A stretch of 63,858 nt of DNA, counting the filler, from Collodictyon triciliatum (lineage: Eukaryota), in assembly GCA_043381765.1 (NCBI GenBank). It is 5 parts of 5 records of this genome, joined end to end, with 100 filler letters (N's around TTAATTAATTAA, not from the genome) between each part and the next. Parts side by side here need not be neighbours in the genome. Positions count along the whole stretch, not along the records: positions 29,497 to 44,134 come from JBHJMP010001791.1; 4 more parts are not named here. One strand, written 5' to 3'. Below the pieces are notes generated by a model, which was given only the letters and a program-made list of their open reading frames with translations, was not told where the DNA came from and searched no databases. Each line of letters begins with the position of its first letter. Positions within the stretch are counted from its first letter, which is position 1. Positions 14,851-60,701 of this stretch are shown here, piece after piece. The position numbers and the translations under genes are program-made.

Positions 14851-14988
14851 TTTTTATTCTTTTGTCCTTGTGTCCATGTGTCCTTGGGCCTTTTGTCCTT
14901 TTATTCTTGTGTCCTTGTGTCCTTGTGTCCTTTTATTCTTTTATCCTTTTATCCTTTTATTCTTTTATCCTTGTGTCCTTTTGTCATT

Positions 14989-15036
14989 TTTTTATTCTTC
15001 CTTTCAATTTTGTGCAGGATGGTGGAGGTGTTGGAG
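14989..15036 (-). mobile_element. Short poly(A) retroposed insertion, family B
   Basis: T-run + ATTCTTCCTTTCAATTTTGTGCAGGATGGTGGAGGTGTTGG matches the copies at 33513 and 43251; flanked by TGTCATT on both sides. Confidence 0.7.
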
Positions 15037-25490: not shown

Positions 25491-25816
25491 CCTGCCCGCC
25501 TGTCCTGCGATCGTGTCTTCGCCCCGCGGCCCCCAACACACGTGCGTTGCGATTCGGTTAGTTTGGTTGTGTGTATGTGTGTGTGAAAGCGTCAGTCAGG
25601 TCGCCCACCTGATTCATCTGTGCCGCTTGGATCCATTCCATGACATGTGTCCGGCGCGTCTCCGTTGCTGCCTTGTGCGCTCTCTTTATATCTGCGCATG
25701 CCGCGGCATCTCGTGCAAAAGGGTTAGGATGCGGTAGGAAAGGGCGCACGCAGACACACACCCGCCCACGCGGGGTGAAGAGCGCAAGCGGTGTCGGGCT
25801 TGTCACGGGCAAGGCG

Positions 25817-26320
25817 CTAGCTCGCTGGGTCTGTGCTTGTGGCAGGCGGCTTGCTGTCGGCTGACGCAAAGCCCTCGAAATGGTCCTCCTGCAGGCCGAG
25901 CTCCTTCATCAGCTCCTCCAGCCGCTCCTTCTTCCGGCGCTCGTTTTCCGTGATGATCAGGCCAAGATGCTCCGTCAGCCGCGTCTTTTCCAAAACCCGC
26001 TTCTGGTACAAGGTCTCGGCGGCTTCGTAGGCGGCTTTGCACCGTTCGCGTTCCCGTAGAGCATACGCCACAGTCCGATCGGCCTCGTCGATTCGATCTC
26101 GAAGCACATTCACGTCCAGAGTCAGGTGTCCCTCAAGCTTCTCCAGCTCCTTGCGGATCCGCTCCAGCCTCACAAACTCCTGCTGTGCTGTGCTGTATCG
26201 TGTGCTGAGCTGCTGCCGAACCAGCTGCTTTTTGCGCTGGATCTCGGGATCGTCTGCCTCGTGAGACCCCATTCCTGGCCCCTCGGTCTCGAATGCCGCG
26301 CTGAAAGCCTCCCACTGCAC
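25817..26320 (-). CDS. GORAB: RAB6-interacting golgin-like coiled-coil protein
   Basis: ELEKLEGHLTLDVNVLRDRIDEA...KTRLTEHLGLIITENERRKKERLEELMKEL matches the GORAB/SCYL1BP1 pattern. The start is uncertain. Confidence 0.75.
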   Translation of the reverse strand: MQWEAFSAAFETEGPGMGSHEADDPEIQRKKQLVRQQLSTRYSTAQQEFVRLERIRKELEKLEGHLTLDVNVLRDRIDEADRTVAYALRERERCKAAYEAAETLYQKRVLEKTRLTEHLGLIITENERRKKERLEELMKELGLQEDHFEGFASADSKPPATSTDPAS

Positions 26321-26686
26321 AGAGCAAGTTGAGTCTTTGGATTCGCGCTAGGAAGGCTGACGTGTCCTCAGCTTTCTAGTCTATTCCCCCCCCCGCCCCC
26401 GTTCTCTACGCTTTGAAACGCTCTACCTTTGGGTAAAGGAAGGCTTTTTTTTTTTGGACAATAATTATCATAATAAAAAAATAGCAGTAGAAAAACAAAG
26501 AGTTCGTTTCAGCCCAAACAGAGGGTGTTACCCTCACAACTTGAAGCCCATGGCCTTTTCTTTTCTCTCACTTTTTTTTTATTTCGTTTCATTTATTTTT
26601 TTTCAGTCCAGAAATAAAAGGCGAACAAAAAAAATGACAAAGAAAAAGAGGTTTGAAGGGCGAACGGCGACTTGCATGGTTTCCAC

Positions 26687-27910
26687 CTACGCGGTGCACG
26701 CATGTGGCGCCCATGACATCCAGTGGAGGTAGAATGCTGCAGCACATGTTTGAAGGAACAGCGCGACGAAAAGTGCCACAGAAAATGATGCCACAGAGAG
26801 GAAGAGCAACGGGAGGACGAAAGAAGAGATAAGTGCCACTCGCGAATAGAAAGCGTGGATTCGCATGAAACACCGGGCATGTACACGGGGGTAGACAAGA
26901 GACAAGTAAGCATGGATGCTACTGCAGGTCCCACCCAAGGAGAATCCCAAAGGTATCAACCCCAAGAGCAGCAGAAGGTCATCCCCTGGGTTTATCAGGT
27001 GTGCAGTCGCCACAGATAGTTGAAAGACAAGAGTGCCAAGCAGAAACGCGGTCGTGGCGAAACGCCTATCTGCCGACCCACTCACAATCATCCCTTGATA
27101 AGCCCTGGCCCCAGCAAGCCGACAGCCAGTGCCAATACTCGCAAGTAAGCCAACTGTTGCTCCATTAATACCCTCGCTGCACAATCTGGCCACCATAATC
27201 GCCTGCCGACTCTCGACAAAACTGGTCATCAAAAAGAACCCCAGAAAAACTAGTACAACAAATTGGCGGTCTCCGGTTCCCCTTTGCTCTTCCACTACGC
27301 TCTCTGAATCAGATGGTCTGGTATCCAAGCCCCAGTAGCCTCGCACAAGTCCAATAGTATCCTTGATACCGAATCCTGATTCATAGCCAAATTCTAGCCA
27401 TGTTTCGGAAGGCACCTCTCGTGATATGCTGTCATCTCCCTCGTCACTTTGTTTCATCGTGTCAAATTGACTTCCACTCACTTCATCACTGAGCCAAACA
27501 AATAAATCATCATAAGCTCCATGAATAAAATAGAGTTGAACAAGACCCAGCAAAAGACCAACCAATAGAACACCAGTAAGGAAAATACTATCTCCAGCAA
27601 GAGACGACAGGCCTAAGGACAGTGGAATCACCACAGGTGTCCAATCATCGAGAGAGCCTTGTAATTCCATAAGCCCTATTTGCTCTGCTACCGGGAGTTG
27701 GTCTTCTAGGGTGCGGACACTTTTTAGTTGTAATAGCCCCCAGCCGTGCCCTAGACATCGGATGATGGCGATGCATACTGTCAGAACCAACTTCAGGCTA
27801 TGAGAGTCTGTCTTTAACAACTCCCAAATAAGAAGAACCCCTATAGAATTACATATGCTCGTAACCAGGATACCGATGGCGATAGCTGAGTTGGATATCA
27901 AATGGAGCAA
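26687..27910 (-). CDS. Multi-pass membrane protein, MFS-like (5' part lost in gap)
   Basis: A 407-aa open frame with two clusters of hydrophobic helices separated by an acidic loop; runs up to an N gap. Confidence 0.55.
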   Translation of the reverse strand: MLHLISNSAIAIGILVTSICNSIGVLLIWELLKTDSHSLKLVLTVCIAIIRCLGHGWGLLQLKSVRTLEDQLPVAEQIGLMELQGSLDDWTPVVIPLSLGLSSLAGDSIFLTGVLLVGLLLGLVQLYFIHGAYDDLFVWLSDEVSGSQFDTMKQSDEGDDSISREVPSETWLEFGYESGFGIKDTIGLVRGYWGLDTRPSDSESVVEEQRGTGDRQFVVLVFLGFFLMTSFVESRQAIMVARLCSEGINGATVGLLASIGTGCRLAGARAYQGMIVSGSADRRFATTAFLLGTLVFQLSVATAHLINPGDDLLLLLGLIPLGFSLGGTCSSIHAYLSLVYPRVHARCFMRIHAFYSRVALISSFVLPLLFLSVASFSVALFVALFLQTCAAAFYLHWMSWAPHACTA

Positions 27911-28699
27911 TTAGTTTTTCTTTGGAATAAGNNNNNNNNNNNNNNNNNNNNNNNNNNNNNNNNNNNNNNNNNNNNNNNNNNNNNNNNNNNNNNNNNNNNN
28001 NNNNNNNNNNNNNNNNNNNNNNNNNNNNNNNNNNNNNNNNNNNNNNNNNNNNNNNNNNNNNNNNNNNNNNNNNNNNNNNNNNNNNNNNNNNNNNNNNNNN
28101 NNNNNNNNNNNNNNNNNNNNNNNNNNNNNNNNNNNNNNNNNNNNNNNNNNNNNNNNNNNNNNNNNNNNNNNNNNNNNNNNNNNNNNNNNNNNNNNNNNNN
28201 NNNNNNNNNNNNNNNNNNNNNNNNNNNNNNNNNNNNNNNNNNNNNNNNNNNNNNNNNNNNNNNNNNNNNNNNNNNNNNNNNNNNNNNNNNNNNNNNNNNN
28301 NNNNNNNNNNNNNNNNNNNNNNNNNNNNNNNNNNNNNNNNNNNNNNNNNNNNNNNNNNNNNNNNNNNNNNNNNNNNNNNNNNNNNNNNNNNNNNNNNNNN
28401 NNNNNNNNNNNNNNNNNNNNNNNNNNNNNNNNNNNNNNNNNNNNNNNNNNNNNNNNNNNNNNNNNNNNNNNNNNNNNNNNNNNNNNNNNNNNNNNNNNNN
28501 NNNNNNNNNNNNNNNNNNNNNNNNNNNNNNNNNNNNNNNNNNNNNNNNNNNNNNNNNNNNNNNNNNNNNNNNNNNNNNNNNNNNNNNNNNNNATTATGAA
28601 ATGCCAAGTGTCATCAAAGTGGTATTATTATTTTTTTTGTGAAAAAAAGGAGAGATAGCATACATATGTCACCAATCAGTATTGAATGAAACAATAAAG

Positions 28700-29163
28700 A
28701 GGATGCTTTTCTCTGCAAGTAACTCACATGGGCGGAATCGAACAAAGCGCTCTTGTTCTGGCTCTTCTCTCGTCGATTCATCGTGGTTATCATGCGTTTT
28801 ATCATACGAAGCATGACCTAAAGGACTTTCTCCGTGCTTCAGACTGCTTTTGACCGCTCGGTTTGAAGAGCCTCCTGATGATAGGGTGTTTGTGGACTCT
28901 TTTTGCTGACCGCGCGTTGGGGTGACGTTTTCTGGTGCTGGCTTTGATGCCGAGTGAAAAGTCGCAGCGTTATGCTCCTTTCGACGGGGATCAAAGTCTT
29001 GATCAAAAGACTGGGTGTTTGGTCTGTTCGAGGGCAACTTTCTCAAGACCTTGCCGCCGGCGCCAAAGCTGGGGTCATCGTCGTCGTCAAGGACAACCTC
29101 TTCGAAAGCGATTTGATGGCCGGGGGTATGCAAACGAAGAAAGTCTGAAGCCTCAGAGAGCAT
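28700..29163 (-). CDS. Hypothetical exon, low complexity (possibly the N-terminus of the membrane protein across the gap)
   Basis: Open frame with protein-like composition ending near a GTGAGT donor. Confidence 0.4.
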
Positions 29164-29396
29164 CGCTTCTGAATAGTTTTGTTAGGATCAGTCTATTTTT
29201 TTTACTTCCAACGACAGAAAAGACACAAAACAAAAAACTTAAACGAAAACAAAGACAAAGACAAATACAAATACAAAAACAAAAACAAAAACAAAAAACA
29301 AAGACACAAAACAAAAAACAAAAACAAAAACAAAAACAAAAACAAAAACAAAAACAAAAACAAAAACAAAAACAAAAAAAAAAAAACAAAAACAAA

Positions 29397-29496: not shown

Positions 29497-29593
29497 TATT
29501 TGATTATTTGATTATTTGATTATTTGATTATTTGATTATTTGATTATTTGATTATTTGATTATTTGATTATTTGATTATTTGATTATTTGATT
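29497..29593. repeat. (TATTTGAT)n
   Basis: Direct reading. Confidence 0.95.
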
Positions 29594-29636
29594 ATATGGC
29601 GGTTTGATGATTTGGTGGTTTTTTATCTTCGATTAG

Positions 29637-33410
<3,774 letters not shown>

Positions 33411-33512
33411 ATAATTGTTTTTGAAACTTTTTTTTTTTTTATTCACGACAGACTTATTGTTTTTGAAACTTGCCTATTTAGCTTTAAGAAATAATTTACA
33501 TGTGAATGCAAT

Positions 33513-33555
33513 TTTTTTACTATTTTTTTATTCTTCCTCTCAACTTTGTGCAGGA
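33513..33555 (-). mobile_element. Short poly(A) retroposed insertion, family B, with TSD
   Basis: T-run + ATTCTTCCTCTCAACTTTGTGCAGGA between direct repeats TGTGAATGCAAT (33501-33512 and 33561-33572). Confidence 0.8.
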
Positions 33556-33624
33556 TTATTTGTGAATGCAATATATTATAGTGTGGAGAAAAAAATTACC
33601 GGTTCTTTTAAATTTGAATTGTCA

Positions 33625-35060
33625 CTAAAGCAGATTTATTTTTCCCCATCCTTTTGTTCCTCCAAATCGTCTATTAACTAGATTGTGAAGAAATTCCCCG
33701 CTGTGATTGCCAATCAGACACAATTGATTTCCTGGTTGGATGGAGCATCCAAATTCATCACCAGCGAGCCCGACGAACACAGCGCCTTCCATGTTGACGC
33801 TCCGTGGGTGTGAGTAAATCCGATCGAATCCATCTCTGCTCATGTGTCCCACTCGCCCGAATGCGTAGCAACAAGACAACCACGAGGAGTTGACTAGGGA
33901 GTTTTTTGCAGTAGCAAACTCCTTGGCCTCGTAAAACCTCAGTCGTTCGAATCTGGAGTCACTCTTTCGATGGCTGGGAATTAAACTTGAATATTTCTGC
34001 CTGAGAATTATACAATAATTGCAATACTGAGAATACGAGTAAATATTGTTACGATGCAGGATTGTACAAGATATGGTTGTCTCCGATGTCCACCAAGTCC
34101 GCTTTCCCCAAGCACCATCCGCACACTACTTCAAAGAAACCATTCGCCAAGTTCGCTCGAATCTTGTGGAGCACGTTGTGCGGGATTCCTTGTGCGACGA
34201 ATAAATCAAAGAGCTTCACGCTTCATTCGCTTCTTCGATCTGATTCATCATAAAGGTATTTTCCTTCCTTCCTTTTTTTTTTTTATCAATTTCTTTTCTT
34301 ATCTTTTTCTGTATCTTCTTCTCTTGGATAAGAATCGCGAGACACAACCACGAAGGGAATGAACCATGAAACAAAGAAGAAAAAAATGTATTTTACGTAT
34401 AAAGCGAACATTTGTGATGGATTTATGATATGGAGTAGCAGATGTGCGCAATTGTTATATTATATCTCAGAGATTGGTTCCGTTCTTGCATCAGCTCCGA
34501 TGGAGAGAATGAAGAGATTGGTTTGCCCAATAATATCACGCACCAGCATCAGAAAAATGAAGAAAAATAGAAATAGATAACAATAACTAAAAAGAAAAAA
34601 GAAAAAAGTACTGTACATATCATGCGGTGTAAAATTAACCAGAATAATGTTACGGGGAGTGGAAGCGGGAGTTGGAGTTGGTTCCCAACGAGGCAAAACA
34701 CACAACAAGCAGCCGGCCGTCAAACCTGTCGCGGGGTGGTTTGCGTGTCTGTGCTCCTGTTCCGATCAGCCGGCGACTGCGATTGATGCGGCTGCAGAAT
34801 GTTTTCGGCAATCGGATTCTCTGGATTTTCAGGCGCGACGGGAGATTCGGTGCGGATGCGGTGAATCCGATTGGCTGGCGAAGACTCGTCCGCAATGCTG
34901 GTGTCAGCTGAGATGCTGCCGCTTAGGTTGTGGGTCCGGTTTGTCTCTGGTTGTGCCACTGTTGCGTTTGGGTGTGCCAGAGTCGGAGTCACAGGCGCTG
35001 ATTGGGTGCTGCGTGCACAGATGGGTGGTTTAGAAGGGTGTCTTAGCGTGGGTGTTGGAT
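33625..35060 (-). CDS. Hypothetical multi-exon protein
   Basis: In-frame exons at about 34068-34190 and 33625-34000, plus an upstream Pro/Ser-rich frame. No family recognised. Confidence 0.4.
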
Positions 35061-35496
35061 GGTGATTGGTGATTGGCGGCGATGCGGGGAAGGCAAAAGG
35101 AAAAAAAAAAAGGCTCGCTGGTGGAAGGATTGTGGTTAAAGATTATGCCTTAAGGAAATGGATGGATGGATGGATGGATGGATGGATGGATGGATGGATG
35201 TTGTTGTTGTTGTTGATGATGATATTAAATACTGGGCATTAATAATAATAAAAAAAATATATAAATTGTTTTGATTATTTAGCGTGTGTTATTACGTGGG
35301 TGTTGACGATGCAGTTCCTGTTGGTGTTTTAGATTTGCTTTGATTGATGGTAGCCTCAAAGGTAATCATTTTTTTCTGTAGTTATGAAAACTGGGATTAG
35401 AAAAGGATGACACGATAGCTTCATGAGTTTGTTGGTTTGAGTGAAAAGAAGCTGTATTTTTATCTTCCTCAAGACTGTCCTTCGATCAAATCTAGA

Positions 35497-38230
35497 CTAT
35501 GGCTTCACAAAAACCTTCATTCTCTCAAACGAATCCCCAACTCGGAGAGGTGACGGGAGAGGCTTTTCAAACATCGCTTTTTTGTCGGGGGAGTCGTCAT
35601 AGTTCCGGCCCTCAGAGTCTGGGTCGAGAAGCTCAAGCTACGTTTGCGATTGAATGCGAGGAGAATTGTTAGCAGATTAATTGGCAAAGGATGAATTTCA
35701 TACATATATTCATGTTTATAGTTGGGTCTTTTTTTTTTTTTTGGAAAAAATTAAGAAAAAACTGCATTTCTTTCGTGACCAAAACTGATCAAAATGAGAG
35801 TATATGAAGGGATATTTGACAAACGCGCAGATAGCTCACCTGAAACCCATCTGTCATGCAGTGAATGCAGGGTGTACTAGGCAATAGGGCAGGCAAAGAA
35901 CTTTTTCCTTCTTCAATCAATCCTTTACCTTGGTTGATGCGATGGAGACAATTTTTTTGTTTTAGATATTCAGATTTTGTACCAAAATATGAAAATATTC
36001 TAGGAAAAGGTATAGTCGGAAAAAGGGGCGGTGCTGGTGATGCAAACAGAAAATATAGTAAACACATACCCTTGATAAAAGCCATAATACATTCTGTGCA
36101 AACTTGGTTACTGCAGCAGCTCGTCTTGTATATCGCTATACATTTAATATACAAGTTAAAAATCTTGATGAAAAGTGAGATTGTGTTGATTTTGAATTTT
36201 TCAGTTTATAGTAGTGTATTATCGTGCGTCTTAATCGGTGATATTATTATTATTTATAATAATATCATTATCATCAGAATCATAGCTATCAGCATTAACA
36301 TTATCATTTGGTGTATTTTCACTGTTTTGATCGCACTCTGATATACAATAGAAATGAAGGATATTGTTTGCTCACTTTTGAAATAAAGCATGCATATTGG
36401 ACAAAAGAACTTGAATTCTGGTCCTTCGTTCTCCGAGCACTTCTTAGAGTCGCATGATGGAAGAACTTTTTCAGTAGAATCGGGTGGTTGGACCGAGTTT
36501 TTTACATTGTCTGCCTCCGCAATAGGGTCCAGGTGAATACTTACTGTATTCCTATAGTTTATGCAAAAATAAGGGATTATTTTAAACGATGGATTTATTT
36601 CTCTCAGTAAAACACAACTTTTTGAATTCAATGCAATTCAAACACGCTGTAGCGATTTTTTAGAATATCATACAAACCTGCTGGCGTAGAAATGTCTTCC
36701 TCCAACAAGAAATAATAAGAGTATAGGCACGAAGGCGAAGTATAGATGAATTATGTAAAAGACAACAGAAGAAAGTGCTGTGGAGTCGCCTGTTTCAAAG
36801 AGGACACCAAAAATCACAGAAATGATAATCCCAGTCACACAAAATATCAGCGGTTTCCTAGCCTGAATGTAGATACAGAATGTCACAATATTGAACTTAA
36901 CGGTGATTATTTCTTTTTTTTTTCCTTTATTCGATTCAAAGTAACGGTGATTATTTCTTAATTTTCATCAATAAAGCATCAGAAATGTTTTGTTTTTTGA
37001 AAAGAAAAGAGAGTATGAAAAATACTGAGTATCATGAATGCTGTATGCGTGTGTTCTAAAAGCACATGTAAAACTTACCTTGTTTATGAATGACATGCAT
37101 AATACATACAGCCATATAGACACCACTATGGAGCCGATGGAACATTTTTTCAAAGATTCCCGACTGGATTTGTAAAGAATCATATTTATTTCTTGAAAAA
37201 GCTCAAATGAGCGAATTTCGGATGCGGTCAGCGATACTAGAAGATGTTCTCGCATGTACTTTCGCTTCGAGTAAAATGATTATGTCAAGCAGATGAGAGA
37301 GGGAGGGGGGACGAACTTTGGTGAATACGCGAGTGAGTGAACTGTTGAATGAGGCATTATATATTTGGTATGTAAATCAGAGATAACAATTCGATACTAA
37401 ATTATTCATTTGTGAGACTCACCAACTGGGTTTCATTTTCTGGCGGCTGTGTTGCAATATTATCATTTTTACGAAGGTGGATACGCATTTTGTTGAATAT
37501 TGGATCGCATGGGACAGAGGGGATTGAATAACCATTCGCTCGAATATATTCTTGATTGTATGCAAATACAAGTGTGTACTTTCCTGATGGTATTTGGCCA
37601 TTTGCAAACGAGGGGCAATCGCTCTGTTTATCAGATGTCGGGAAGAGAACTTGGACTTTTGATTCTGCTTCTGATTGCGGTGCTTTGAAAGGTACAATCA
37701 CAAAGACATCGATGCTTTAATTAATTGCTTTTCAAAAAAAAAAAATACAATAAAATGCTCACATAAAATAGCAATCAAATTGTAGAAATAAACAAAACAA
37801 AAATTAAAAGCAACAAGCCATATATTTGCGAATATGAACTGATAACTTGGAACATATATATTTTTAAAAGCAATGAGAGCCTTCGGTCAAATAAAAGTCG
37901 CTTACAAAGGAATATTGTTTGTGTGAAAACATGTGTGTGATTCTCGTAATCAAAGAGTGCGACCACGATGGGATGCAAATGAGAAGCAGACTTCAAGCGC
38001 ACTGAAACGAGATGGTGACTTCGATCAAAGGTTACGTTGAACATGGTAACTGCTTCAAGTGTGGAGGGCTGTTTGCGGGATCGGTTGGACGACAACGCGA
38101 GGCTGAGATCGAAGCCGTGGCCGAAGATTCCGCCGATAATCAGGCTGACTTGAGCCACACAGGAAAGCAAAACAGTCGCCACAAGGAAAGCGGTTTTGAG
38201 AGTCGCTTTTGATCTGGGCTTTTGCTCCAT
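35497..38230 (-). CDS. Membrane protein with C-terminal RING-like zinc finger
   Basis: Spliced exons give an N-terminal TM, three further TMs, then FFCPICMLYFK-TIYKTSCCSNQVCTEC...PCIHC. Confidence 0.65.
36916..36941 (-). mobile_element. 26-nt micro-retroposon, family A, intronic, 18-bp TSD
   Basis: T8-CCTTTATTCGATTCAAAG flanked by perfect TAACGGTGATTATTTCTT at 36898-36915 and 36942-36959. Confidence 0.9.
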
Positions 38231-38549
38231 GGGGTTGTCGTCGGATTTGCGAGCGTGTCTTGGCTTTGGTTTTGGCTTGATTGTCTGTCTCTGTGATGGG
38301 CTTAGTCCTTTCCATCAGTTGCTTCTTACTTTTTTGTAAGAGTTTGCTTGTTGATTCTGTTTGGTTTTCTCTTTGCTCTTACTTTTTAATTTATGTTTTT
38401 GTTTTTATTTTTATTTTTAATTTCTGTTTTTTGTTTTTATTTTTGTTTTTATTTTTGGAACATGAGAAAAAAAAAACGAAAAGCAGTATCTGACTCCTGT
38501 ATCGATTTATTGCGAGTAGTTATGCGATGAGCAGAATGCTTATTTCTCG

Positions 38550-41500
38550 TCATAGAATGTATATGGTATCTTGAATGCCATCTGCAACAGGCTCATCGCG
38601 CTCCATCCAATCTACTTTGCTCAAGAACATCTCCAGTATGTCATAAGACTCATATACGGCATATGCCTTGATTGTTTCTGTGTCGGGTTTTGTTATCTCG
38701 GAGATAAATACCATGTCCGTTGTATTGGACATTCTCAGGATTGTTGCCAGCGCTTCGGTAACCTACCATTCCATTTTTTCTTCAGTATTCAATATGAGTA
38801 TGTAAATATTCGTAAATCATGATTTTTCCTTACAATGACGCAGTTTTTCTTCTCCAAATACGACATCGCTGATGTATTTTGAACTGTATTTTGCAAATAT
38901 ATATAAATTATATATTTAACACGACTGTATCTCATTTAAATAAATCCACACCTGGTGAGCCGAAGCAACCGAACGAAAAAATTTCTCTTCCTATTGTCAA
39001 AGCATTTTTTAAATATTAATATACAAGAAGTATTAAAAGATAGGAAATTACCGACAACTCCGAATGATATATTTCCTTTGTCAATGTATATTGTTGTTTC
39101 TGCATCGCATATTGTTTTCTCCTGCAAGAACAACTGTACCATTCTTTGGAGCTGCGGTTTTGGAATAATGAAAAAAAGTAAATAATAGTATAGATATTGT
39201 ATTCGAATCGCTAAGGGCATAATTCTTACGTGAATATAAGCTTGTATGACACTGCCTATATCTTCGTGGTTATTTGATTTAATTTTCGCTCGTTTGTGTA
39301 CTTGCACCATCTGAAAAAAATTGTTTAATATTGATACTTGGAATTATTTGCTGATGACTACAAAAAGAAAAAAAAGGAAACGTGCCAAAATTGTTTCGGC
39401 CGATGCACAGAGAACTTCTGTTTCTAATGGACTGCATTCCCTTTCGACTCTCTTAAGTATATCTTTGCAATTATAAGATGCTTTTAAAAAAAGGCTTAAG
39501 TATTGATTTGTTCGATGCAAGCTAATTACTTTTTTTTTTTTTTTTACATAATTAAAGTAAACCTGATATGGTACAGAACATATTGCTACTTTGCTGGGCA
39601 TCAGGGTTACTCCTTTGCCTCATTTCTATTCTGATGAAGAGGGCATCCTCCATATAATTGAAGAAACATATCTCTTCCTTCATGCTTTCGTGGGACTCTG
39701 TTGGGAGTGTAGATTTCAGAAGGATTTCCATCCTCTCTTTTTCTTCAGCCATCTCACTCAGAACCTGTGAAATTTTCAGAGCAATATCAACAGCTATTTT
39801 TCTTGATAATACAAAAAATTTATATGGTCATTCCTATTCAAAGTGATTTATTAGCAAACCTTTTGCAATATTTTTCGGCTCAAGTATTGTTTTCGATAAT
39901 AGTAGTCTCGGAAGCTCATCATCACCAAACAAATGCTCAAAGGAACAAATATTACAGTAAAATCCCACATAAAAATGAATATTCCGAACAATCTAATAAA
40001 ATGGAGTTTTTATTCACATCAAAGTAATTTAAAATTAATATTCATATGTAAATAAAATAATAATTGATGAGTCGATCTGTTCCTCACCCAATATTTTGAG
40101 AGTACTTTATTATCAGAAAGCTAAGACAACATGCCCAAAGCCCAATCTGAATTGCGGCATAAAACGGAACAACCCAAACAACAGATACGAATAAAATACC
40201 GATTTCCATAATTTCGATGAAAATGTATGTATTTTGTTCTATTGTATGCGTTTCAACGTATTCTTTCTCCGAAAAAACAATTTGGGTTTTCACCAAAACA
40301 TATGCGGCATAAAGAGAACCAATTATATAGGGTATGTTTCTAAAAGACATGTCGCTGTTGTATTGGATATATTCTCTGTGAAAATACAGTGACAGGCATC
40401 CGAAAATCATAATTGGCAAAAGACAGTAGTATCGAAAGTAAATGAAGCTGATATCCATGAGCTCATGTTGAACTGATATCGAAGATAGCAAGCTCAGGTC
40501 TACACCACCATATAATAAGGCCCCAAAAGTGACTGCAGATAGTAGAACCCTGGATTATTAATACTATTAATCTTTTCATACTTCATAACATATAAAAATA
40601 GTATTCGATTCGTACAAAACAGCATCTATTTTCCCCCTTGAACATAGCCTTTCTTGGTACTCTTTTTCGTCCTTTTCACTTTTGAATCTAAAATCTCCCA
40701 CGAAAGCCCTTAGCCCTCTTTCCTTCCAAGTTTTGATAAAAGGGTCTGCTTCTTCAGTCTGAGACTATTTTTTATATTCGAAGAATGCCATTAATTTTTG
40801 AAATATTTTTTTCCTTTATTCGATTCAAAGAATTTTTGAAATATTTATTTACATAATTTAAGTTAGTTTTAAGGTAGATTTTGGGTTAGTTTGATTAAAA
40901 CCTCTAATTCATCGATGGAATCACTGGTATCATTCACTTTTGTTGCTTTGTACCCCACTTCATTATGAGTATATATTCCACTCATTTCGGCGTTACTTGG
41001 TGTAAAGATGATATATTTCGATGTATCTGTACACTTTGTTTTCCATCTGAATAAAATGAGTTCTTCCTAGAAAAGAATTTCAGTAAAAAGGTTTGAACAA
41101 AGATATTATAATAGTTTTTTGACCTTTCTATTGTATATCCGTAGGTAAGCCTCTTTTGCGTTGTCACTGATACAAATTTCCCAATATGATGCATTATCTA
41201 AACACTCTCTTGTCTCTGATATACCTATTAAAAAATTGGATATTTATAAAGGATTTTCGAAAAAAAATAATTACGAACCTTCTCCGAGTATGCTGAACGA
41301 CATTTGAGAGTAGTGAATCATTGAACCCTTCACACGTCCATAACCGATACCGATTCTCACTGATGTCTGTTTAAAATTCCATCAATAAATTAATTAAAAT
41401 TTGTGTTATATTCCTTGAATCGAATAATGGAAAAATGTTTGGGTAATTTTAAAAATAAATCCAAACATGTATTGAAGACATTTTCTGAGTCCCTCGAACG

Positions 41501-43619
41501 ATGTTGTTTGAAAGTTTTATTACATCGACAATCGACTCTCCGAATAAACCTGTTATGCACTATAAAATATGACTTGCATTAAGTGGCAAAATTTTTGAAA
41601 TTATCACCTCTTGATTTATTGATGCTCACAAATACCTGTATTGTAAGTCCTGTGTTTATATAAGAGTTAGTATATGTAAAAAAAAAATATTGATACATCA
41701 TTGAATGCAATCAAAAATAATAAGTTTAAAATACCAGTTGTGCATATCTTGTGAGCCTTAAATCTAATTTTACGAATATTAGTGTTGATTCCACTTGTTA
41801 CAAAATAATAAAACGTGCCTGTCAATTTCTTCACTGATGTACCTGTCAAATAAAACCAAGTTTTATCAGAATTTTATCGAATTTTTTGAAATTTAATTAT
41901 ATTCATTGAATACAATTATTACTCGAATTTTTCGTCAATTTCGTCCCTTAAATTAGAAATATTCTCTCGAATATTATTGGTAATGACTATTTCTATCAGA
42001 ATTACACAACAGGCTTCCGATTCAAACACCGGATTATCATTGTGTTCTCGGACAATCATATTTATCACAGGCCTGTGGATAATACTTAGTCACTTCGATT
42101 TTTTTTCATAATCATTTAATGTAATAAAGCGAAAGAAATCATTTGATATTTGATAATCACATACTTTGGATATAGATTCGAAAGGAGTGTTCTAGTTCTC
42201 CTCCTGGATTCTGATAGTCTTACTTTCAAGTATTTCATTTTTTCCTGCGAGTAAAACGAGCTATTTTGTTCAAAATCAGAAATTGAAAATGATATTGATC
42301 TTAAAGTAATTTATTAACCTTCTTCTTTGCCTTTCTAAGTCTCTTAAAAGAGATACATTAACAAATGAATTGATGAGCAGTGTGTTCATCGCGCGGTACA
42401 TGGCGGAAAAATTGGCCTTATAGACCAGAAATAGTATGAAAGGGAGAATATTCCCAATTATTGTAATCATTATTTGCCATTCAAAGTATCCTGGAAGTGC
42501 GACTACAAAGACCTTTTCAGATATTTTAGATGTCACAATTATCGCTACTCACAATTTTATGGATAGAATAAACAATTTTTTTATTTAAATAATGACAAAC
42601 CATTATCATAAACTCTATTTCTGCCAATGTTCTGTCTTTCGTAAAAAATATAATTGCAAACGAAAACAAAACAACAGTGATTAGGAACATTAGCCCGTGG
42701 AGTCGAAAGTAATATCTATGAAAATAAAAAGTTGGTTCAAAATAAAATGAAAATGAATGAAAAATTAATCATCGAATATTATCTCAAATATGTATATAAT
42801 TGAAATTGAAAAATACGCACTGTGGCTTTTCATTCGACTTAATTTGGTAAGAAAAGAAAAACATTACGGAGAAAACTGCGCAGCATGTTGATACTGTACA
42901 GTATAAAATCATGCCTGATTCATTCTCTCTGAGCATCCTACGGTTTTGAATAATGTTTTTATTATTCTTTAAATTTTGTACAATATGGTGGGCGATATAG
43001 AATGAAATTATTTTACCACTTTCAAAATATAGCTGCAGCGTAATAATGAATTAACAATTACCGATAATATGCCATAGTTGCGGAATACATCGATGCTATA
43101 AAGGAAAAAACGAGCGCTATCAGCGAAGAAACTCTTGATAAGCCTAATTCGTAAGTTTTTTCCATTTCCCCATTAACAAACCTGCAAAAAGGAATCAAGT
43201 AAGTGAAAATGTAAATGATATAAGGCACCATATCAACTCAAATGTCACCGTCAGAGCCAACATTTCCACCATCCCGCACAAAATTGAAAGGAAGAATTTA
43301 AAAAAAAACTCAAATGTCACCGCATAGTCCTCGCGTTTAATTGGAATATAGGAAATTGGCTTTCTAAGCCATCATTTCTTTCAATTTCATTGATAATCTC
43401 TGCTAGATTCTCATGTCCGTCATGGATTACTGCTCCATTTTCGTCGTGTCCAACCGTTTGATATTGGGAAAGTTCGTCTGAAAAAGATGAGGAATCAACT
43501 GGTTTTTTTCCTTTCAAGGAACGAACATGCATCCGTAGAAGCTTTCCATATCTCTTGGCTTCTGTGTATTGGATTCGGCTCCCCCTGGACGCTACCGACG
43601 ACTCGCTTTTTGGAGGCAT
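38550..43619 (-). CDS. Transmembrane class III nucleotide cyclase-like protein (TM-C1-TM-C2), catalytically degenerate
   Basis: Two RFx(N/S)xxxExxY pre-TM motifs, two TM bundles, helical LLSNLYPK and LLKSTLP, and a cyclase-fold sequence CCVILIEIV..AHKICTTG..CITGL..VRIGIGYGRVKGSMI..FSILGE..EICISD. Confidence 0.7.
40809..40830 (-). mobile_element. 22-nt micro-retroposon, family A, intronic, 16-bp TSD
   Basis: T4-CCTTTATTCGATTCAAAG flanked by perfect AATTTTTGAAATATTT at 40793-40808 and 40831-40846. Confidence 0.88.
41413..41435 (+). mobile_element. Degenerate family A micro-insertion, intronic
   Basis: CCTTGAATCGAATAATGGAAAAA has 2 mismatches to the consensus; no clean TSD. Confidence 0.55.
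43251..43306 (+). mobile_element. 56-nt poly(A) retroposed insertion, family B, 16-bp TSD
   Basis: Insert ending ...CCATCCCGCACAAAATTGAAAGGAAGAATTT-An flanked by perfect AACTCAAATGTCACCG at 43235-43250 and 43307-43322. Confidence 0.9.
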
Positions 43620-44134
43620 GATTGCCTGTGTCCTTTGCCTTGCCTAAGAATTTTATTAAACGCTTTGGTCAGACTCCCAATATGCAGCTCCTTTCTATCC
43701 CCAAAAAAGTGTGTTATTCATTAGTCTCTGACAGTTTTCCTGTTGCTCGCTAAGAGATACTGTGGATCGCTCTGCTCATGTTGACGTTGTTGAGTTCATG
43801 TTTTTGTTCCAATTCATTTTTGTGCTGTTCTTTGTCTTCTGTGCTCGGAAATTTTGTTTTTTAAGTGGAATGACACATTAGAATTTCTTGTCTCAGTTTT
43901 CTATGAAAGTGGATATGTGTGGAAAATAAATTTGCAGAGTGCAAGAAGCATTTCTGATTCTATTGCGGCAGCGGGTGGCGACATGTTCTGTTTTAAATCC
44001 TTCACAAGGCCATCCAACTTCTCTTCTCTTCTTTTCTTTTCTTTTCTTTTCTTTTCTTTTCTTTTCTTTTCTTTTCTTTTCTTTTCTTTTCTTTTCTTTT
44101 CTTTTCTTTTCTTTTTTCTTTTCTTTTCTTTTCT

Positions 44135-44234: not shown

Positions 44235-44268
<34 letters not shown>

Positions 44269-44323
44269 TCTTAAAAAAATATCTTTCCTTTACGCCCAAA
44301 CTCATGTATACTTAATTTTGCAG

Positions 44324-44446
44324 GCGTTTGGCCACGTTTGTCCTGAAGGTGCAAAGGCCATCGAAAGTATAGGGAAGTTTGCTGGGCGATATTTCGGGCG
44401 AGAATCAAAACCGACGCCTGAAGCAACACCCCCTTCAAAATTGTAA
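44324..44446 (+). CDS. Terminal exon of an upstream gene (possibly an alpha/beta-hydrolase C-terminus)
   Basis: ttgcag acceptor followed by AFGHVCPEGAKAIESIGKFAGRYF...stop. Confidence 0.3.
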   Translation, partial: AFGHVCPEGAKAIESIGKFAGRYFGRESKPTPEATPPSKL

Positions 44447-44959
44447 CCCGAGTTCCATTATCCAAACTCAGCTTTTTTTTGTTTTTTGTTTTTTTTTATA
44501 TCGATATACACTTAACATTAAGTATGTATTGGTATCATTCTTTATATTTGCAGCGTGTATTAAACCGCGAATGCTTTTTGTCATCCCTTTATCTTCTGGC
44601 CTGACCAACATCCAATGAACCACACAAACAAAATAAAGACAAGGTTTTGTGGTTGCCAAGTACAAATGCGAATGAAACCAAACGCACAGAAATGACGATA
44701 CGGCAAAGCCTGCGTAGTTTCCCTTTAATTCCACAAAAGATTATATTTTGATCATACTTTTTTTGTCATGACTTAGCGCATTCAAAGGAGATTCATTTTC
44801 GTCATTTTCCTTCTTTTCCATTTCTTTTGTTGTCAAGACGGCGATCAAAGCCAAGTAGTCCTGTCAAACAAGCTGAACGGCACAATGTCTTCGCGAAAGG
44901 TCTCTGTCTGATCCCACCCAAAGAGGGCGCTTTGAATCGCTGAATCGTGCCCATTTAGA

Positions 44960-46376
44960 ATGAGTCGACGAGGTGGAAAAGAACGCGGGAAAGGTAAAGA
45001 ACGCGATAAGGCGGATTCTGANNNNNNNNNNNNNNNNNNNNNNNNNNNNNNNNNNNNNNNNNNNNNNNNNNNNNNNNNNNNNNNNNNNNNNNNNNNNNNN
45101 NNNNNNNNNNNNNNNNNNNNNNNNNNNNNNNNNNNNNNNNNNNNNNNNNNNNNNNNNNNNNNNNNNNNNNNNNNNNNNNNNNNNNNNNNNNNNNNNNNNN
45201 NNNNNNNNNNNNNNNNNNNNNNNNNNNNNNNNNNNNNNNNNNNNNNNNNNNNNNNNNNNNNNNNNNNNNNNNNNNNNNNNNNNNNNNNNNNNNNNNNNNN
45301 NNNNNNNNNNNNNNNNNNNNNNNNNNNNNNNNNNNNNNNNNNNNNNNNNNNNNNNNNNNNNNNNNNNNNNNNNNNNNNNNNNNNNNNNNNNNNNNNNNNN
45401 NNNNNNNNNNNNNNNNNNNNNNNNNNNNNNNNNNNNNNNNNNNNNNNNNNNNNNNNNNNNNNNNNNNNNNNNNNGAGCTGGTTTGTTTTCGTTCTTACTT
45501 CCTCTCGAACTGAGTAGAACGTCTGTATTTCCTGTAAATAGAATACATTAAATGAAAGAATCAATATATATTCTCCTGTTCATTTATTTCCGATTGGATA
45601 GATATTTCTGCAATAGATAGCAACGGACTTTCTGCTTTGCATATTGCGTCAATTTACGGATTTGCCCCATGTATAAACGTATGTAAGAAACTTTTATTTT
45701 CCCCATTCCATGGCTCCGTCGAATGATAATGATATTGAAAGGTATTGAAGATCAAGTTTGTGCATAACGCGAATATAAAAACCAGGTGCTTCTGGCGAGC
45801 GGGGCAGATCCAAACATGTCCGACCCTGTGCACCAGCGAACCCCAGTTTTCCTAGCGGCGCTTCATAATCACGCGAATTGTGTATGTAATACCAACATTT
45901 CAAAAATACTACATTCATATTATTCTCCTTTTTAAAAGAAAAAACACAAAAATAAAAGAGGAATACGGCTGTGTATGAAAAGATCGGCTCGTTGTCGACA
46001 TTCTTAACCATTTCTCCATTATTTTTTTTTGAGAGAAGATGTATTTGGATGGCCCCGCTACGATTATAGTCTTTAGAACTCAGTCATCTCTATTTGATCT
46101 TGCCAGGTTCGCAGCCTCCTCATGGGTGGCGCTGACCCGATGAAACCGTGCGACTCTGGAGAGACTGTACTTGATAAGTGTAAATCTACACAGATACGGG
46201 GATTGATAGAAGGTTTGTCTGTTATTATCGATGGCTGCTTGGATGTTGGCTATTGTAACTGGCTATTTTCTTCCTCAGCCATCTATTCATGCAACCCAAC
46301 TAATTCCGATGGATTCTTTTTCTATTTCACATTCTCAGATTACATCAAATCGAAAGCTGCCCAAGAGCCGCAATAG
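44960..46376 (+). CDS. Ankyrin repeat protein (spans an N gap)
   Basis: Exons NGLSALHIASIYGFAPCI, VLLASGADPNMSDPVHQRTPVFLAALHNHANC and VRSLLMGGADPMKPCDSGETVLD. The start is uncertain. Confidence 0.8.
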
Positions 46377-46674
46377 CCTATTTCTTTTTTTCTATCTATC
46401 ATTACGCAGTATATACCAGGGGGTGTCTAGTCACAGAACTAGCAGCAAAAGCGAAAACTGTAGATATGCTCGAGAATCTATTTAATAGCACAGGAAATCA
46501 ATATCTATCCGCAACAAACAAAGATGTCTGTATCGAATGAATAAACCCCCGCTTCGTTAGCGTCGACAATATCCCATGAGGGACACTTCTTTCTGATTTT
46601 GTGATATCATCCCCACTCATTTATTGCGTGAGGCTTGTTAAGTGATGCTGCTGGATAGAGACCCCTTTGTTTGT

Positions 46675-48569
<1,895 letters not shown>

Positions 48570-49460
48570 CGGTTCTAGTTTGCTATGGGCGAGAGGGAAG
48601 CGTTTGTTACAACTCACAACCGACGCGAAACACAATGCCAGAAAGACTGATAGACAATGAGGCAAAAGAAGCCGGGCGACTCGCATACAGGGCCAGTCTT
48701 TCGTTCAGCTCTCTCAATCCTTGATTTGCTTCATTTCAGTAGAAAATAACGTGATAAAGGAAACAAGACAGTTAAAAAGAAAAAGAGGAAAGGAAAGGAG
48801 AGGAAAGAAGAGCTTGGTAGGAAATCAGTCGCGCAAGTCTGCCCCATTCCAGGAGTGCGATAATGAAGAAGGAAGTCGGGTGTCCTTCACAAGACCGAAT
48901 GAATGTGTTTGCTTTGTGTTTTTGAGAAGTGCGTTTCGCGCATTCCGCTTGCGGGCGGACACAAACCACAACTCAGGCTAGACACAAATCGTTTGTTGCG
49001 CGCAGTCTCGTCTTTGGGAATTCATTCTGTTTGTGTCCCCACACAAGGATAACGCAGGCAACAAACCCGCCAGTGCGGCTTCTGTCACGTATGCCATTCT
49101 TGTTTGGAGCGCCATCAGTCTCGTTCGGCCGCTTTGCTCAGAGTCAAAGCCGTGTTGTTGAATCGTGGGTATGTGGTGTCTGTGTGGGTTCTGCCAGTCG
49201 CTTGCGTGTGAATGCGTAGTGTTGTCGTGTGATGCAAGCAAGTGCGTTTTGCTACATATTGGGTGTGATCGATGCAATAAAAAAAGAATCCAATAGGATT
49301 ATGAATTGGTGCTTATGTATAAATCATATTCCTGAGCGTAAATTGTAAATAGATATATTTTCCAGATTAGAATAGACCATCCTTTTGTGGGGAGTTTACA
49401 CTAATTTGGAGTCTTAGGGCGGAGTGTTCGCAGGCGTTTATTGCGCAGACATCTCAGGGC

Positions 49461-52400: not shown

Positions 52401-52937
52401 TCTTTTACCAAGAGATGTCAAAGCACATAAGCATGAGTCATATTTAGTACTGCATCTAACGTAACACATCATAAAACCCATACAATACTCCGATATCGCC
52501 AAGATTGACTCCAGGAAAACATAAGAAATTAGAAGGAAAAAGGAAAACAGAAAAAAGGAAAAGAAAAAAGAAAAATGAAAAAAGGAAAAGAAAAAGGAAA
52601 AGAAAAAGAAAAAGAAAAAGAAAAAGAAAAAGAAAAAGAAAAAGAAAAAGAAAAAGAAAAAGAAAAGAAAAAGAAAAAGAAAAAGAAAAGAAAAAAGAAA
52701 AAAAAGAAAAAGAAAAAAGAAAAAAGAAAAATGAAAAATGAAAAAGAAAAATGGAAATGAAAAAAGGAAAAGAAAAAAGAAAAAAGAAAAAAGAAAATTA
52801 GCAGATTCACCTTTGGGGATTTTTGTGAGGACGAGCCAGATCTCAGGAAGCCCAGAGTCCTTCAGAGAGACGGGCAGAGCGATGCTCATGCCGACGACGG
52901 CAAACAAGAAGAAAGCAGCAAACAAAGTGCGTTGCAT
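49461..52937 (-). CDS. Secreted M28 family aminopeptidase, multi-exon
   Basis: Signal peptide; VVVGAHYDD, APGANDDGSG, FSGEEQGLYGS, QSDM, CCSDQQSF and DPQYHQTGD motifs. Confidence 0.93.
52535..52797. repeat. (GAAAAA)n-type intronic repeat
   Basis: Direct reading. Confidence 0.95.
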
Positions 52938-53284
52938 CTCCCTACAGAATCTTTCTTAGTTGCCCCGCCGATCGTGTGTGTTGCTGTTGTTGTTCGCGAA
53001 GGATATCCATTTTCCTGATAATCAATGGCAATACTTAACGCGGAGAAAGGCTTCGTGTATATTGGCATACAATGAAAACAAAGCATGAAACATTCATTGG
53101 AAATGATCTTTAATGGAAATAAAGCCAATACTTTTTGCACAGCACCAATTATGGAGTGTAAGCGAATTGAATAAACATGACTTCCTGTTGTGGGATGGTT
53201 AGTCAGGTGGCTTGCTTAATTCGTGGCTTTGCTTCTCGATACTGCGATTGCGCCGTGCCCATAGAAAGGGAGTGTCAAGATTAT

Positions 53285-53320
53285 TTGAATCGACTAAAGG
53301 AGAGGAGGAAAAATAAATAA
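53285..53320 (+). mobile_element. Older family A micro-insertion with decayed A-tail and degenerate TSD
   Basis: TTGAATCGACTAAAGG + A-rich tail between AGAAAGGGAGTGTCAAGATTAT and AGAAGGGGTGTTAAGATTAT. Confidence 0.65.
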
Positions 53321-53524
53321 AGAAGGGGTGTTAAGATTATGTGAGCAATTTTAGGTGCCTATATACTGCCGTTTAATACAGGTATTTTATTTTTTTGAAT
53401 CTAGTATCGACCAGACGATAAACTAAATCTACAAGGCAAAAATTAAATCCTTCCAAACGACAAAGTCACGCTCCGTCAGGGCGATTTTATTGAAACATGT
53501 TGATAGTTCTCAGGAAATGGATGT

Positions 53525-59243: not shown

Positions 59244-60110
59244 TTTTTTTCCTTTATTCGATTCAAAGTGTAGCGAGGTTGTGCCATACAAAGGGATGGG
59301 ATAGGTGTGTATGATAGAGAGCAAACGCGAGTATGGGAGGTCACTACTGTGGAGGGGGTAGCATTGGAAAGAAATCAGTGATGGCGAGCTGGTCAGGTGC
59401 GCGACCCAACTGGTTGATTGGTTGCGTGGGTAGCAGGGTTTGGATATGCTGCGGAGATATCGCACAACACATTCCTACATCTCTCTTCGCTTGCGGTCAG
59501 AGTAGCGAAGAAGGCGAGCGTGTTTCAGCAGGTTGTTCAGGAAGCCGTATTGCACGAGGCTTTCAAGCCTGGATACATTGATTTCTCGTTCGGTGATGCC
59601 GTATTTATATTAATATTATTATAAATACGGCATCATTCGGGTGAATAACTAGAACGAGAGAATGCACGCACACTCCATAAGGACTGCATATGTTCCCTTG
59701 TGACTGTCCAGAGTATTCTAGAGTCGTGGGTCATTTGGTATTGTGCGCCAAACAGGATGTCAGACGCGCTGAGTCGGTTGGGAGCATAATCAAGCTCAGA
59801 GCGCATCTTGTGGGTAGATTCTGTCACTTTTTGAGCAAGAGAGCACTTCACAAATGGGGAGTAACTGAGGTATACGGGCTTGCTTCCAGCTTTTGACTAT
59901 TGGCGGGTCTATAATGCCTATAGTTTCGGCCCAACGACTCATTTTCTCCGGTTTGTAGGGATTCGGACTGATGATTTTATGTCGAAACAGCTTGGAGTAC
60001 GCCATGGCTATCGAGAATTGCGGAGAGTCAGGTGTAATGGACAGCCTTTGGTTCTTCAGGCGAAAGAAAAATTGAGACGGCGCTCTGTATGAGATGGGAC
60101 GACAAGAACC
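59244..60110 (-). mobile_element. 5'-truncated, degenerate L1/Tx1-like non-LTR retrotransposon (ORF2 C-terminus + 3' UTR + A-tail); source of family A
   Basis: Minus-strand frames FSIAMAYSKL..RW..W and KCSLAQKV..LSASDILFG..LWSVR resemble the L1-clade ORF2 C-terminus. It ends in CTTTGAATCGAATAAAGG-A7. Confidence 0.72.
59594..59635. mobile_element. 42-bp palindromic micro-MITE, TG..CA ends, 5-bp TSD
   Basis: 16-bp perfect TIR TGATGCCGTATTTATA, with TTCGG on both sides. Removing it restores the host ORF2 frame (SYSPE-REINVSRL). Confidence 0.85.

Positions 60111-60370: not shown

Positions 60371-60701
<331 letters not shown>

What the first reader, a model, noticed from the sequence alone, without database searches (positions are those of the whole stretch)
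36898..40846. Family A micro-retroposons: an 18-nt hairpin plus poly(A), inserted with full-length TSDs and a fixed 5' end
Seen: the identical 18-mer CTTTGAATCGAATAAAGG followed by A4-8 (minus strand) occurs at 36916-36941 and 40809-40830. Each copy is intronic and flanked by a different perfect TSD (18 and 16 bp), so these are independent insertions. The same 18-mer is the exact 3' terminus of the longer L1/Tx1-like element at 59244-60110, on another contig. Its first 17 nt fold as CUUUG-AAUCGAA-UAAAG. Both short copies start at the base of this stem (one has 1 nt of ambiguity with the TSD), and the older copies at 41413 and 53285 start within 2 nt of it. Established: poly(A) plus 10-20 bp TSDs is the signature of target-primed reverse transcription, and LINE 5' truncation points are normally heterogeneous. 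Inference: a fixed breakpoint suggests either a discrete ~20-nt processed RNA acting as a minimal SINE, or precise arrest/cleavage of reverse transcription at the hairpin (possibly host restriction). Four short copies in 64 kb would imply a very high genome-wide number.
Basis: partly seen in the sequence, partly recalled or inferred. Interest (0 to 1): 0.9.

Follow-up and report, generated by a model that had tools for sequence, protein, structure and literature searches.

The report
Ultra-short LINE tail copies, recurrent 18-nt end
Two fresh and two older insertions consist of only the last 18 bases of a LINE retrotransposon plus a poly(A) tail; they are real but dead-on-arrival stubs, and it remains untested genome-wide why all four begin at the same base.

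Summary
The 18-mer plus an A-run lies at 36916-36941 and 40809-40830 (minus strand), between different perfect 18- and 16-bp target-site duplications (TSDs). The same 18-mer is the exact 3' end of a longer copy at 59244 to about 60101, and of an independent metagenome contig (L001). That contig's ORF carries the zf-RVT zinc knuckle of L1/Tx1-type LINEs. Two older copies (41413, 53283) lose likeness to the LINE at the same base, give or take one.

Two parts of the interpretation weaken. The "hairpin" is not stable: the minimum-energy fold is the open chain. The same window piece also holds other poly(A)+TSD micro-insertions from at least two other tails (15, about 27 and 49 nt, plus one of about 43 nt elsewhere), and their 5' ends differ. 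So this genome makes ultra-short target-primed insertions in general.

Best reading: these are dead-on-arrival, extremely 5'-truncated LINE copies with a favoured stop at -18. They are not a self-propagating micro-SINE. A discrete processed RNA template is not excluded.

The sample is four copies. No genome was available, so the genome-wide breakpoint test was not run. Interest is moderate.

The parts
36898..36915 (.). TSD of copy A1, left copy on the + strand (18 bp)
   Evidence: Identical to 36942-36959
36916..36941 (-). Copy A1: 18-mer (36924-36941) followed on the minus strand by A8 (36916-36923). The A-run is 10 long if the first two A of the TSD are counted.
36942..36959 (.). TSD of copy A1, right copy on the + strand
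40793..40808 (.). TSD of copy A2, left copy (16 bp)
   Evidence: Identical to 40831-40846
40809..40830 (-). Copy A2: 18-mer (40813-40830) followed by A4 (40809-40812). The A-run is 7 long with the TSD's first three A.
40831..40846 (.). TSD of copy A2, right copy
41413..41435 (+). Older copy A3: 18-mer with 2 mismatches plus A5. Likeness to the LINE stops at the same base. The TSD is not statistically supported.
53266..53339 (+). Older copy A4: degenerate TSD (53266-53283 / 53323-53339), 17-18 nt of the tail (53283/4-53300, 2 mismatches) and a decayed A-rich tail (53301-53322)
   Evidence: TSD: 2 of 2000 shuffles as good
59244..60101 (-). Long 5'-truncated copy of the parent LINE: end of ORF2 plus 3' UTR, ending in the 18-mer (59251-59268) and A7 (59244-59250). 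Relative to other copies it has a 128-nt deletion and a 47-bp insertion. Its 5' end is uncertain by about 10 nt.
43235..43322 (+). Family B micro-insertion: 16-bp TSDs around 49 nt + A7 (43251-43306)
33501..33572 (-). Family B micro-insertion: 12-bp TSDs around about 27-31 nt of the same tail plus an A-rich tail (33513-33560)
14987..15034 (-). Family B copy of about 43 nt + A7 inside a microsatellite-like region; TSD unclear
33414..33471 (-). Family C micro-insertion: 16-bp TSDs around 15 nt + A11 (33430-33455)

Best explanation
The 18-nt + poly(A) units are dead-on-arrival, extremely 5'-truncated copies of the 3' end of an L1/Tx1-type LINE.

Proposed steps:
1. The element's endonuclease nicks an A/T-rich site. 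All clear TSDs begin with A, four of the five with AA.
2. The T-rich nicked strand anneals to the poly(A) tail and primes reverse transcription.
3. In this genome the reaction is usually resolved after only 15-50 nt.
4. The staggered second nick, 12-18 bp away, gives the TSD.

For this LINE, cDNA synthesis ends preferentially right after template position -18. That is a template-position-specific stop or release, not a fixed cDNA length, because the A-tails differ. The stubs carry no promoter and do not propagate; each is a fresh by-product of LINE activity.

Shown: the insertion anatomy, the LINE origin of the 18-mer, the shared 5' end in 4 of 4 copies, and that other tails also give micro-insertions. 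Inferred: the mechanism and the cause of the -18 stop.
For: - Perfect, different TSDs of 18 and 16 bp with pure A-tails.
- In a strict scan (14-mer TSD, up to 2 mismatches, A-run of 6 or more) there were 7 poly(A)+TSD structures in the correct orientation and 0 in the mirrored control. With exact TSDs of 10 bp or more there were 8 against 2; all 5 short ones (under 60 bp) were in the correct orientation.
- The 18-mer is the 3' end of the long window copy and of L001, an independent metagenome contig. The two align over about 850 nt at 85% mean column identity, gaps included.
- The L001 ORF matches Pfam zf-RVT at 1.5e-7.
- Of 14 relatives found among 1.84 billion proteins, four are full length (1226-1275 aa, 29-38% identical). 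All four carry Exo_endo_phos + RVT_1, and 3 of the 4 also zf-RVT.
- Contigs of 4 runs from 3 studies carry the same 3' end and then run on into unlike flanks (loose ends at 59238-59246 in 2, 8, 5 and 3 contigs). So the 18-mer is a genuine repeated terminus, not an adapter.
- 4 of 4 short copies lose likeness to the LINE at -18/-17.
- Family B copies end at 49, about 43 and about 27 nt, and family C at 15 nt. Ultra-short insertion is therefore general here.
Against: - Only four short copies were seen, two of them decayed and one without a supported TSD.
- No physical reason for a stop at -18 was found. The terminal stem does not fold, and the last 97-131 nt fold no better than shuffles (z +0.44 and +0.12).
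- There is no microhomology between the TSD ends and the LINE at the junction.
- A reverse transcriptase is expected to stall before a structure, not just after copying it.
- A run-off on a discrete RNA 5' end would explain the precision as well or better.
- The genome-wide distribution was not seen.
Confidence: 0.55

Rival explanations
1. Processed-template model. LINE transcripts are cut or trimmed to a discrete fragment that starts at -18. This could happen by small-RNA-guided slicing, or by 5'-to-3' exonuclease halted at the protein-bound 3' end. The reverse transcriptase already bound to the poly(A) tail then copies that fragment to its end, which gives a precise 5' boundary.
For: - The same 5' base in 4 of 4 copies despite different tail lengths and targets.
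- No junction microhomology and no stable structure that could stall the enzyme, which favours an RNA end over a pause.
Against: - No RNA data were available.
- Family B and C micro-insertions have differing ends. A general early-termination regime already exists and needs no processing.
- No extra untemplated bases at the junctions; the idea that run-off copies often carry them is recalled knowledge, not tested.
Confidence: 0.2
2. There is no real hot spot. These are ordinary, very early 5' truncations, and the shared end point in four copies is a small-sample and ascertainment effect, because the reader noticed them for being identical.
For: - Other families show scattered ends of 15-49 nt.
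- Contigs of other runs lose likeness to this LINE at 41 nt (2 contigs, X1) and 54 nt (1 contig, X4) from the tail. Longer stubs with other ends therefore exist.
Against: - A search with up to 3 mismatches would have found any copy of 18 nt or more, yet every short copy found ends at -18/-17.
- If ends were uniform over 12-60 nt, three further copies within one base of the first would have odds of about (3/49)^3, roughly 2e-4. This is my own arithmetic on an arbitrary null.
Confidence: 0.15
3. A self-propagating minimal SINE: a dedicated source gene transcribes the 18-mer + poly(A) RNA, which borrows the LINE machinery through the shared tail.
For: The tail is identical to the LINE's, as in SINE/LINE pairs, and the unit length is uniform.
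Against: - 18 nt cannot hold an internal promoter.
- No tRNA, 7SL or 5S-like head: 0 Rfam matches and 0 tRNAs in the window.
- No copy shows conserved upstream sequence (2-4 of 12 matches).
Confidence: 0.03
4. Artefact: adapter or primer remnant, or misassembly.
For: The unit is short and identical, and the micro-copies were seen in this assembly only.
Against: - The 18-mer sits at the end of a LINE in an independent metagenome contig and in contigs of 4 runs from 3 studies.
- Perfect 16-18 bp duplications of local sequence around each copy are not what adapters or chimeras produce.
Confidence: 0.02

Closest known systems
5'-truncated, dead-on-arrival copies of L1-type LINEs (target-primed reverse transcription)
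   Same: Poly(A) tail, variable 12-18 bp TSDs that begin with A's, derivation from the exact 3' end of a LINE whose relatives carry APE + RT + zinc knuckle, and no coding capacity.
   Different: The length is far below what is usually annotated (18 nt). The 5' end is the same in 4 of 4 copies, whereas truncation points of L1 are described as heterogeneous (recalled knowledge). In this window short stubs outnumber long copies.
SINEs that share the 3' tail of a partner LINE (tail-recognition model of Ohshima and Okada; recalled)
   Same: A non-coding unit that carries the LINE's 3' terminal sequence and is inserted by the LINE machinery.
   Different: No RNA-gene-derived head, no promoter and no body. 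The unit is several-fold shorter than the about 100-bp Platy-1, which the abstract listed (PMC4864456; abstract only) calls the shortest known SINE in primates.
Stringent-type LINE 3' stem-loop recognition (for example eel UnaL2; recalled)
   Same: The idea that a short 3' terminal element is enough to be used as a template.
   Different: The proposed 5-bp stem is not stable. The tails are poly(A), not short tandem repeats. Recognition was not tested.
Processed retrocopies of mRNA 3' ends and poly(A)-only insertions
   Same: Families B and C, and an A-rich-only insertion at 47915-48006, look like very short TPRT products of polyadenylated RNAs.
   Different: For family A the source is identified as a LINE. 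For B and C no parent was found in the window.

Membership tests
Non-LTR retrotransposon (LINE), L1/Tx1-type: the parent element | C-terminal CCHC zinc knuckle (zf-RVT) after the RT in ORF2 | tested here: met
   The L001 ORF 549-1157(-) matches PF13966 at E 1.5e-7, 32.4 bits against a cut-off of 27.5. The window copy has lost this part through a 128-nt deletion.
Non-LTR retrotransposon (LINE), L1/Tx1-type: the parent element | APE-type endonuclease and reverse transcriptase domains in the same ORF | tested here: inconclusive
   Only about 1 kb of the 3' end is available. All four full-length relatives (29-38% identical over the tail piece) have Exo_endo_phos + RVT_1. The element's own 5' part was not seen, and no phylogeny was made, so the clade (L1 or Tx1) is unresolved.
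Non-LTR retrotransposon (LINE), L1/Tx1-type: the parent element | Poly(A) 3' end and variable-length TSDs at A/T-rich nick sites | tested here: met
   A4-A11 tails. TSDs of 12-18 bp that start with A (AA in four of the five) in the 5 clear micro-insertions. The TSD of the long copy itself is not supported.
SINE | Promoter-bearing head derived from tRNA, 7SL or 5S RNA (internal pol III promoter) | tested here: not met
   The unit is 18 nt. There are 0 Rfam matches at gathering score and 0 tRNA genes in the whole window.
SINE | 3' tail shared with a partner LINE | tested here: met
   The 18-mer is identical to the LINE terminus.
Stem-loop-dependent (stringent) LINE tail | Stable, conserved 3' terminal stem-loop | tested here: not met
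   MFE of 18-mer + A7 is 0 kcal/mol (open chain) and 200 of 200 shuffles fold at least as well. Covariation is not testable, since the 18-mer is invariant in the live-looking copies.

The most novel reading that the evidence does not exclude
A discrete 18-nt + poly(A) RNA, cut or trimmed from LINE transcripts at a fixed base, is repeatedly reverse-transcribed into the genome. The cut could be a host slicing product or the nuclease-resistant footprint of the LINE ribonucleoprotein. This would make the smallest recurrent retroposed unit described, present in thousands of copies. It would leave a genomic record of RNA-level restriction of a LINE.
Probability: 0.17. Interest if true: 0.8.

Novelty: new variant of a known kind. 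Interest (0 to 1): 0.48.

Why it matters
Standard repeat annotation cannot see insertions of 20-50 bp. If a genome makes most of its target-primed insertions this short (about one clear case per 8-12 kb in this window), then LINE activity and its mutational load are badly underestimated there.

A truncation point fixed to one base would be a rare handle on what ends cDNA synthesis in vivo: enzyme release, a template end, or host restriction. It could be tested directly with degradome data and in vitro reverse transcription.

If the genome-wide distribution proves smooth, the finding reduces to ordinary, very short LINE stubs.

Tried and rejected

**Collection scans with the 18-mer + AAA**
- Metagenome contigs gave 2 loci. 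L001 is a true LINE copy. L002 is a chance match inside a GC-richer sequence that shows no LINE likeness around the match.
- Genome contigs gave 2 loci in Bacteroidota MAGs, going by their titles. I did not read them and treat them as chance matches.
- Viral contigs gave 0.

**The look-up of sequencing runs.** Only small shares were found (0.14, 0.09, 0.06) and no RNA holder is listed.

**Read laying on the long copy**
- The element is present in all 4 runs: 21, 49, 219 and 20 contigs laid.
- Summed contig depth is highest in the bin that holds the 18-mer in X2-X4. The tool states that contig depth cannot rank parts of a stretch, so I draw nothing from it.
- The shortest pieces listed are 53-60 nt, so 18-nt copies could not be seen.
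- 79 loose ends were not shown.
- Empty-site alleles at 36898-36959 and 40793-40846 were not examined, because the single call went to the long copy.

**Searches that added little**
- The search for homologous proteins ('longer') with the L001 ORF: none of 403 candidates scored.
- Pfam on three frames of the window's long copy: 0 families.
- The listing of cluster members: no informative names.

**Looser TSD scans.** With 10-12 bp TSDs the correct orientation is no longer clearly enriched over the mirror control (7 v 6, 10 v 7, 10 v 4, 16 v 14, 10 v 6). Only the strict sets are used.

**Junction microhomology** was considered as the cause of the fixed end and rejected by reading.

**Literature.** Four full-text searches listed nothing about fixed-end micro-copies of a LINE tail. 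I saw listings and abstracts only, plus passages of PMC2806351, which were not relevant. That is no proof that it is not in print. Supplements were not consulted.

**Organism.** Two Atlas look-ups put diatom-dominated clusters first. This is a weak lead only.
Full report
**What the window is.** It is not one contig. It is five pieces (1-14651, 14752-29396, 29497-44134, 44235-58876, 58977-63858) joined by N44 / 12-letter / N44 spacers, with further N runs inside; 61,895 bases are not N. It is eukaryotic DNA of 30-44% G+C, apart from one bin at 57%, and it is rich in microsatellites. Two Atlas look-ups of window proteins put diatom-dominated clusters first, which is only a weak lead.

**The observation.** The 18-mer occurs exactly three times and twice more with two mismatches. 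That is 5 matches at up to 3 mismatches against 0.12 expected, and 0 of 100 shuffles reached 5.
- At 36898-36959, read on the minus strand, the order is: an 18-bp stretch, the 18-mer, A8, then the same 18-bp stretch.
- At 40793-40846 the order is: a 16-bp stretch, the 18-mer, A4, then the same 16 bp.
- The two duplications are unrelated, so these are two insertions and not a segmental copy. Both begin with AA, so the A-runs are 10 and 7 long.

**Is the poly(A)+TSD signature more than chance?** I scanned both strands for direct repeats that bracket a short insert ending in an A-run, and used the mirror-image geometry as a control.
- With exact repeats of 10 bp or more, 8 structures had the correct orientation and 2 the mirrored one. 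All 5 inserts under 60 bp were in the correct orientation.
- With 14-mers at up to 2 mismatches and an A-run of at least 6, the count was 7 against 0.
- Looser settings lose the contrast, so I rely on the strict sets only.

**Origin of the 18-mer.** On the fifth piece the 18-mer plus A7 ends a stretch of about 855 nt (59244 to about 60101, minus strand).

One exact match in the metagenome collection, L001 (1157 bp), carries an independent copy. The two align along the whole shared length at 85% mean column identity, gaps included, and both read ...GCTACA, 18-mer, A-run, then unrelated flank. The other metagenome hit, and by their titles the two hits in bacterial MAGs, are chance matches; I did not read the MAG loci.

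L001 has an open frame of 202 codons that matches Pfam zf-RVT (1.5e-7, above the curated cut-off). A full HMMER pass over 1.84 billion proteins found 14 relatives. Four are full length (1226-1275 aa, 29-38% identical); all four carry Exo_endo_phos + RVT_1 and three also zf-RVT.

The parent is therefore a LINE with the L1/Tx1 architecture. Which clade it belongs to was not resolved, and its own 5' part was not seen.

Laying contigs of four public runs (three studies) on the long copy showed the element in all of them: 21, 49, 219 and 20 contigs. Loose ends directly after the A-run lead into differing flanks (2, 8, 5 and 3 contigs). The 18-mer is thus a real, repeated element terminus, not an adapter.

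**The shared 5' end.** In the 12 bases upstream of the 18-mer, the four short copies match the LINE at 3, 2, 2 and 4 positions, against 12 of 12 for L001.
- The copy at 53283 has a supported degenerate TSD (17 of 18 positions with one gap; 2 of 2000 shuffles as good). That TSD may include the first base, so this copy starts at -18 or -17.
- The copy at 41413 has no supported TSD (1316 of 2000), but it loses likeness at the same base.

Four of four short copies therefore begin within one base of each other. A search tolerant of 3 mismatches would have found any longer stub, and it found none apart from the 855-nt copy. The junctions show no microhomology between the TSD end and the LINE. The tails differ in length, so the constant is a position in the template, not a cDNA length.

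1. The hairpin does not hold. The 18-mer + A7 has the open chain as its minimum-energy state (0 kcal/mol), and all 200 shuffles fold at least as well. The last 97 nt of the window copy and the last 131 nt of L001 fold no better than shuffles (z +0.44 and +0.12).
2. Family A is not alone. The same third piece holds three more perfect poly(A)+TSD micro-insertions:
   - 49 nt + A7 at 43251-43306 (16-bp TSD);
   - about 27-31 nt of the same tail at 33513-33560 (12-bp TSD);
   - 15 nt + A11 of a third tail at 33430-33455 (16-bp TSD).

   A further copy of about 43 nt of the second tail lies at 14987-15034. Weaker candidates lie at 22280-22337 and 47915-48006, the latter A-rich only. The second tail shows three different 5' ends.
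3. Contigs of other runs lose likeness to the family A LINE at 41 nt (2 contigs) and 54 nt (1 contig) from the tail. This is weak evidence, because it comes from metagenome contigs laid at 85% likeness.

Very early resolution of target-primed reverse transcription therefore looks like the rule in this genome, and heterogeneous ends exist as well.

**Mechanism.** I take the units to be dead-on-arrival by-products of LINE activity:
1. a nick at an A/T-rich site;
2. priming on the poly(A) tail;
3. cDNA synthesis that ends after 15-50 nt;
4. a second nick 12-18 bp away.

For this LINE there appears to be a favoured end just after -18.
- Enzyme release or pausing at that template position is my first choice (0.55 together with the general model).
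- A discrete RNA 5' end made by cleavage or trimming is the main rival (0.2). It fits the precision and the lack of structure, but there are no RNA data.
- Coincidence in a sample of four stays possible (0.15).
- A self-propagating micro-SINE is unlikely (0.03), because 18 nt cannot hold a promoter and no RNA-gene head is present.
- An artefact is very unlikely (0.02).

**Comparison and novelty.** The kind of thing, a 5'-truncated LINE copy, is well known. The unusual features are the extreme shortness, the apparent single-base end point in one family, and the density of such stubs (5 clear, 7-9 in all, in about 62 kb). Four literature searches listed nothing equivalent (listings and abstracts only), which does not show that it is not in print. 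I file it as a new variant of a known kind, of moderate interest, pending the genome-wide breakpoint plot that I could not run.

Noticed in passing
window 33414-43322 (third piece): All five perfect-TSD poly(A) micro-insertions (families A, B and C) lie within about 10 kb of one AT-rich piece. None lies in the other 52 kb or so. This may be a local insertion hot spot, or simply the only large stretch of neutral AT-rich DNA in the window.
   Followed up: partly
window 59589-59635, inside the long LINE copy: A 47-bp insertion that is absent from L001 and from contigs of runs X1, X3 and X4 (joint 59588>59636). It is a 42-bp foldback with 16-bp perfect inverted arms and a 10-nt centre, flanked by a 5-bp direct duplication, like a miniature inverted-repeat element. 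No other copy of the arm occurs in the window.
   Followed up: partly
window 47915-48006 (+): An A-rich, (GAAAAA)n-like insert of about 64 nt between near-identical 14-mers (2 mismatches). It may be a tail-only target-primed insertion.
   Followed up: no
window 22280-22337 (+): A 30-nt insert that ends in a short A-run, between 14-mers with 2 mismatches. It may be an older micro-insertion of a fourth source.
   Followed up: no
window 760-6402 (+) and 15536-18889 (+): Two very long intron-free frames: 1880 codons with NACHT, pentapeptide and WD40 matches, and 1117 codons with WD40 plus 12 Ephrin_rec_like repeats.
   Followed up: no
window 24429-25595 (-): A TauD-family dioxygenase frame lies in the only GC-rich stretch of the window (57% against 30-44% elsewhere). 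This could be a foreign-origin gene or a compositional island.
   Followed up: no
window 60366-61240: A long (AAT)n-type run is followed by a tandem array with a period of about 24 nt.
   Followed up: no
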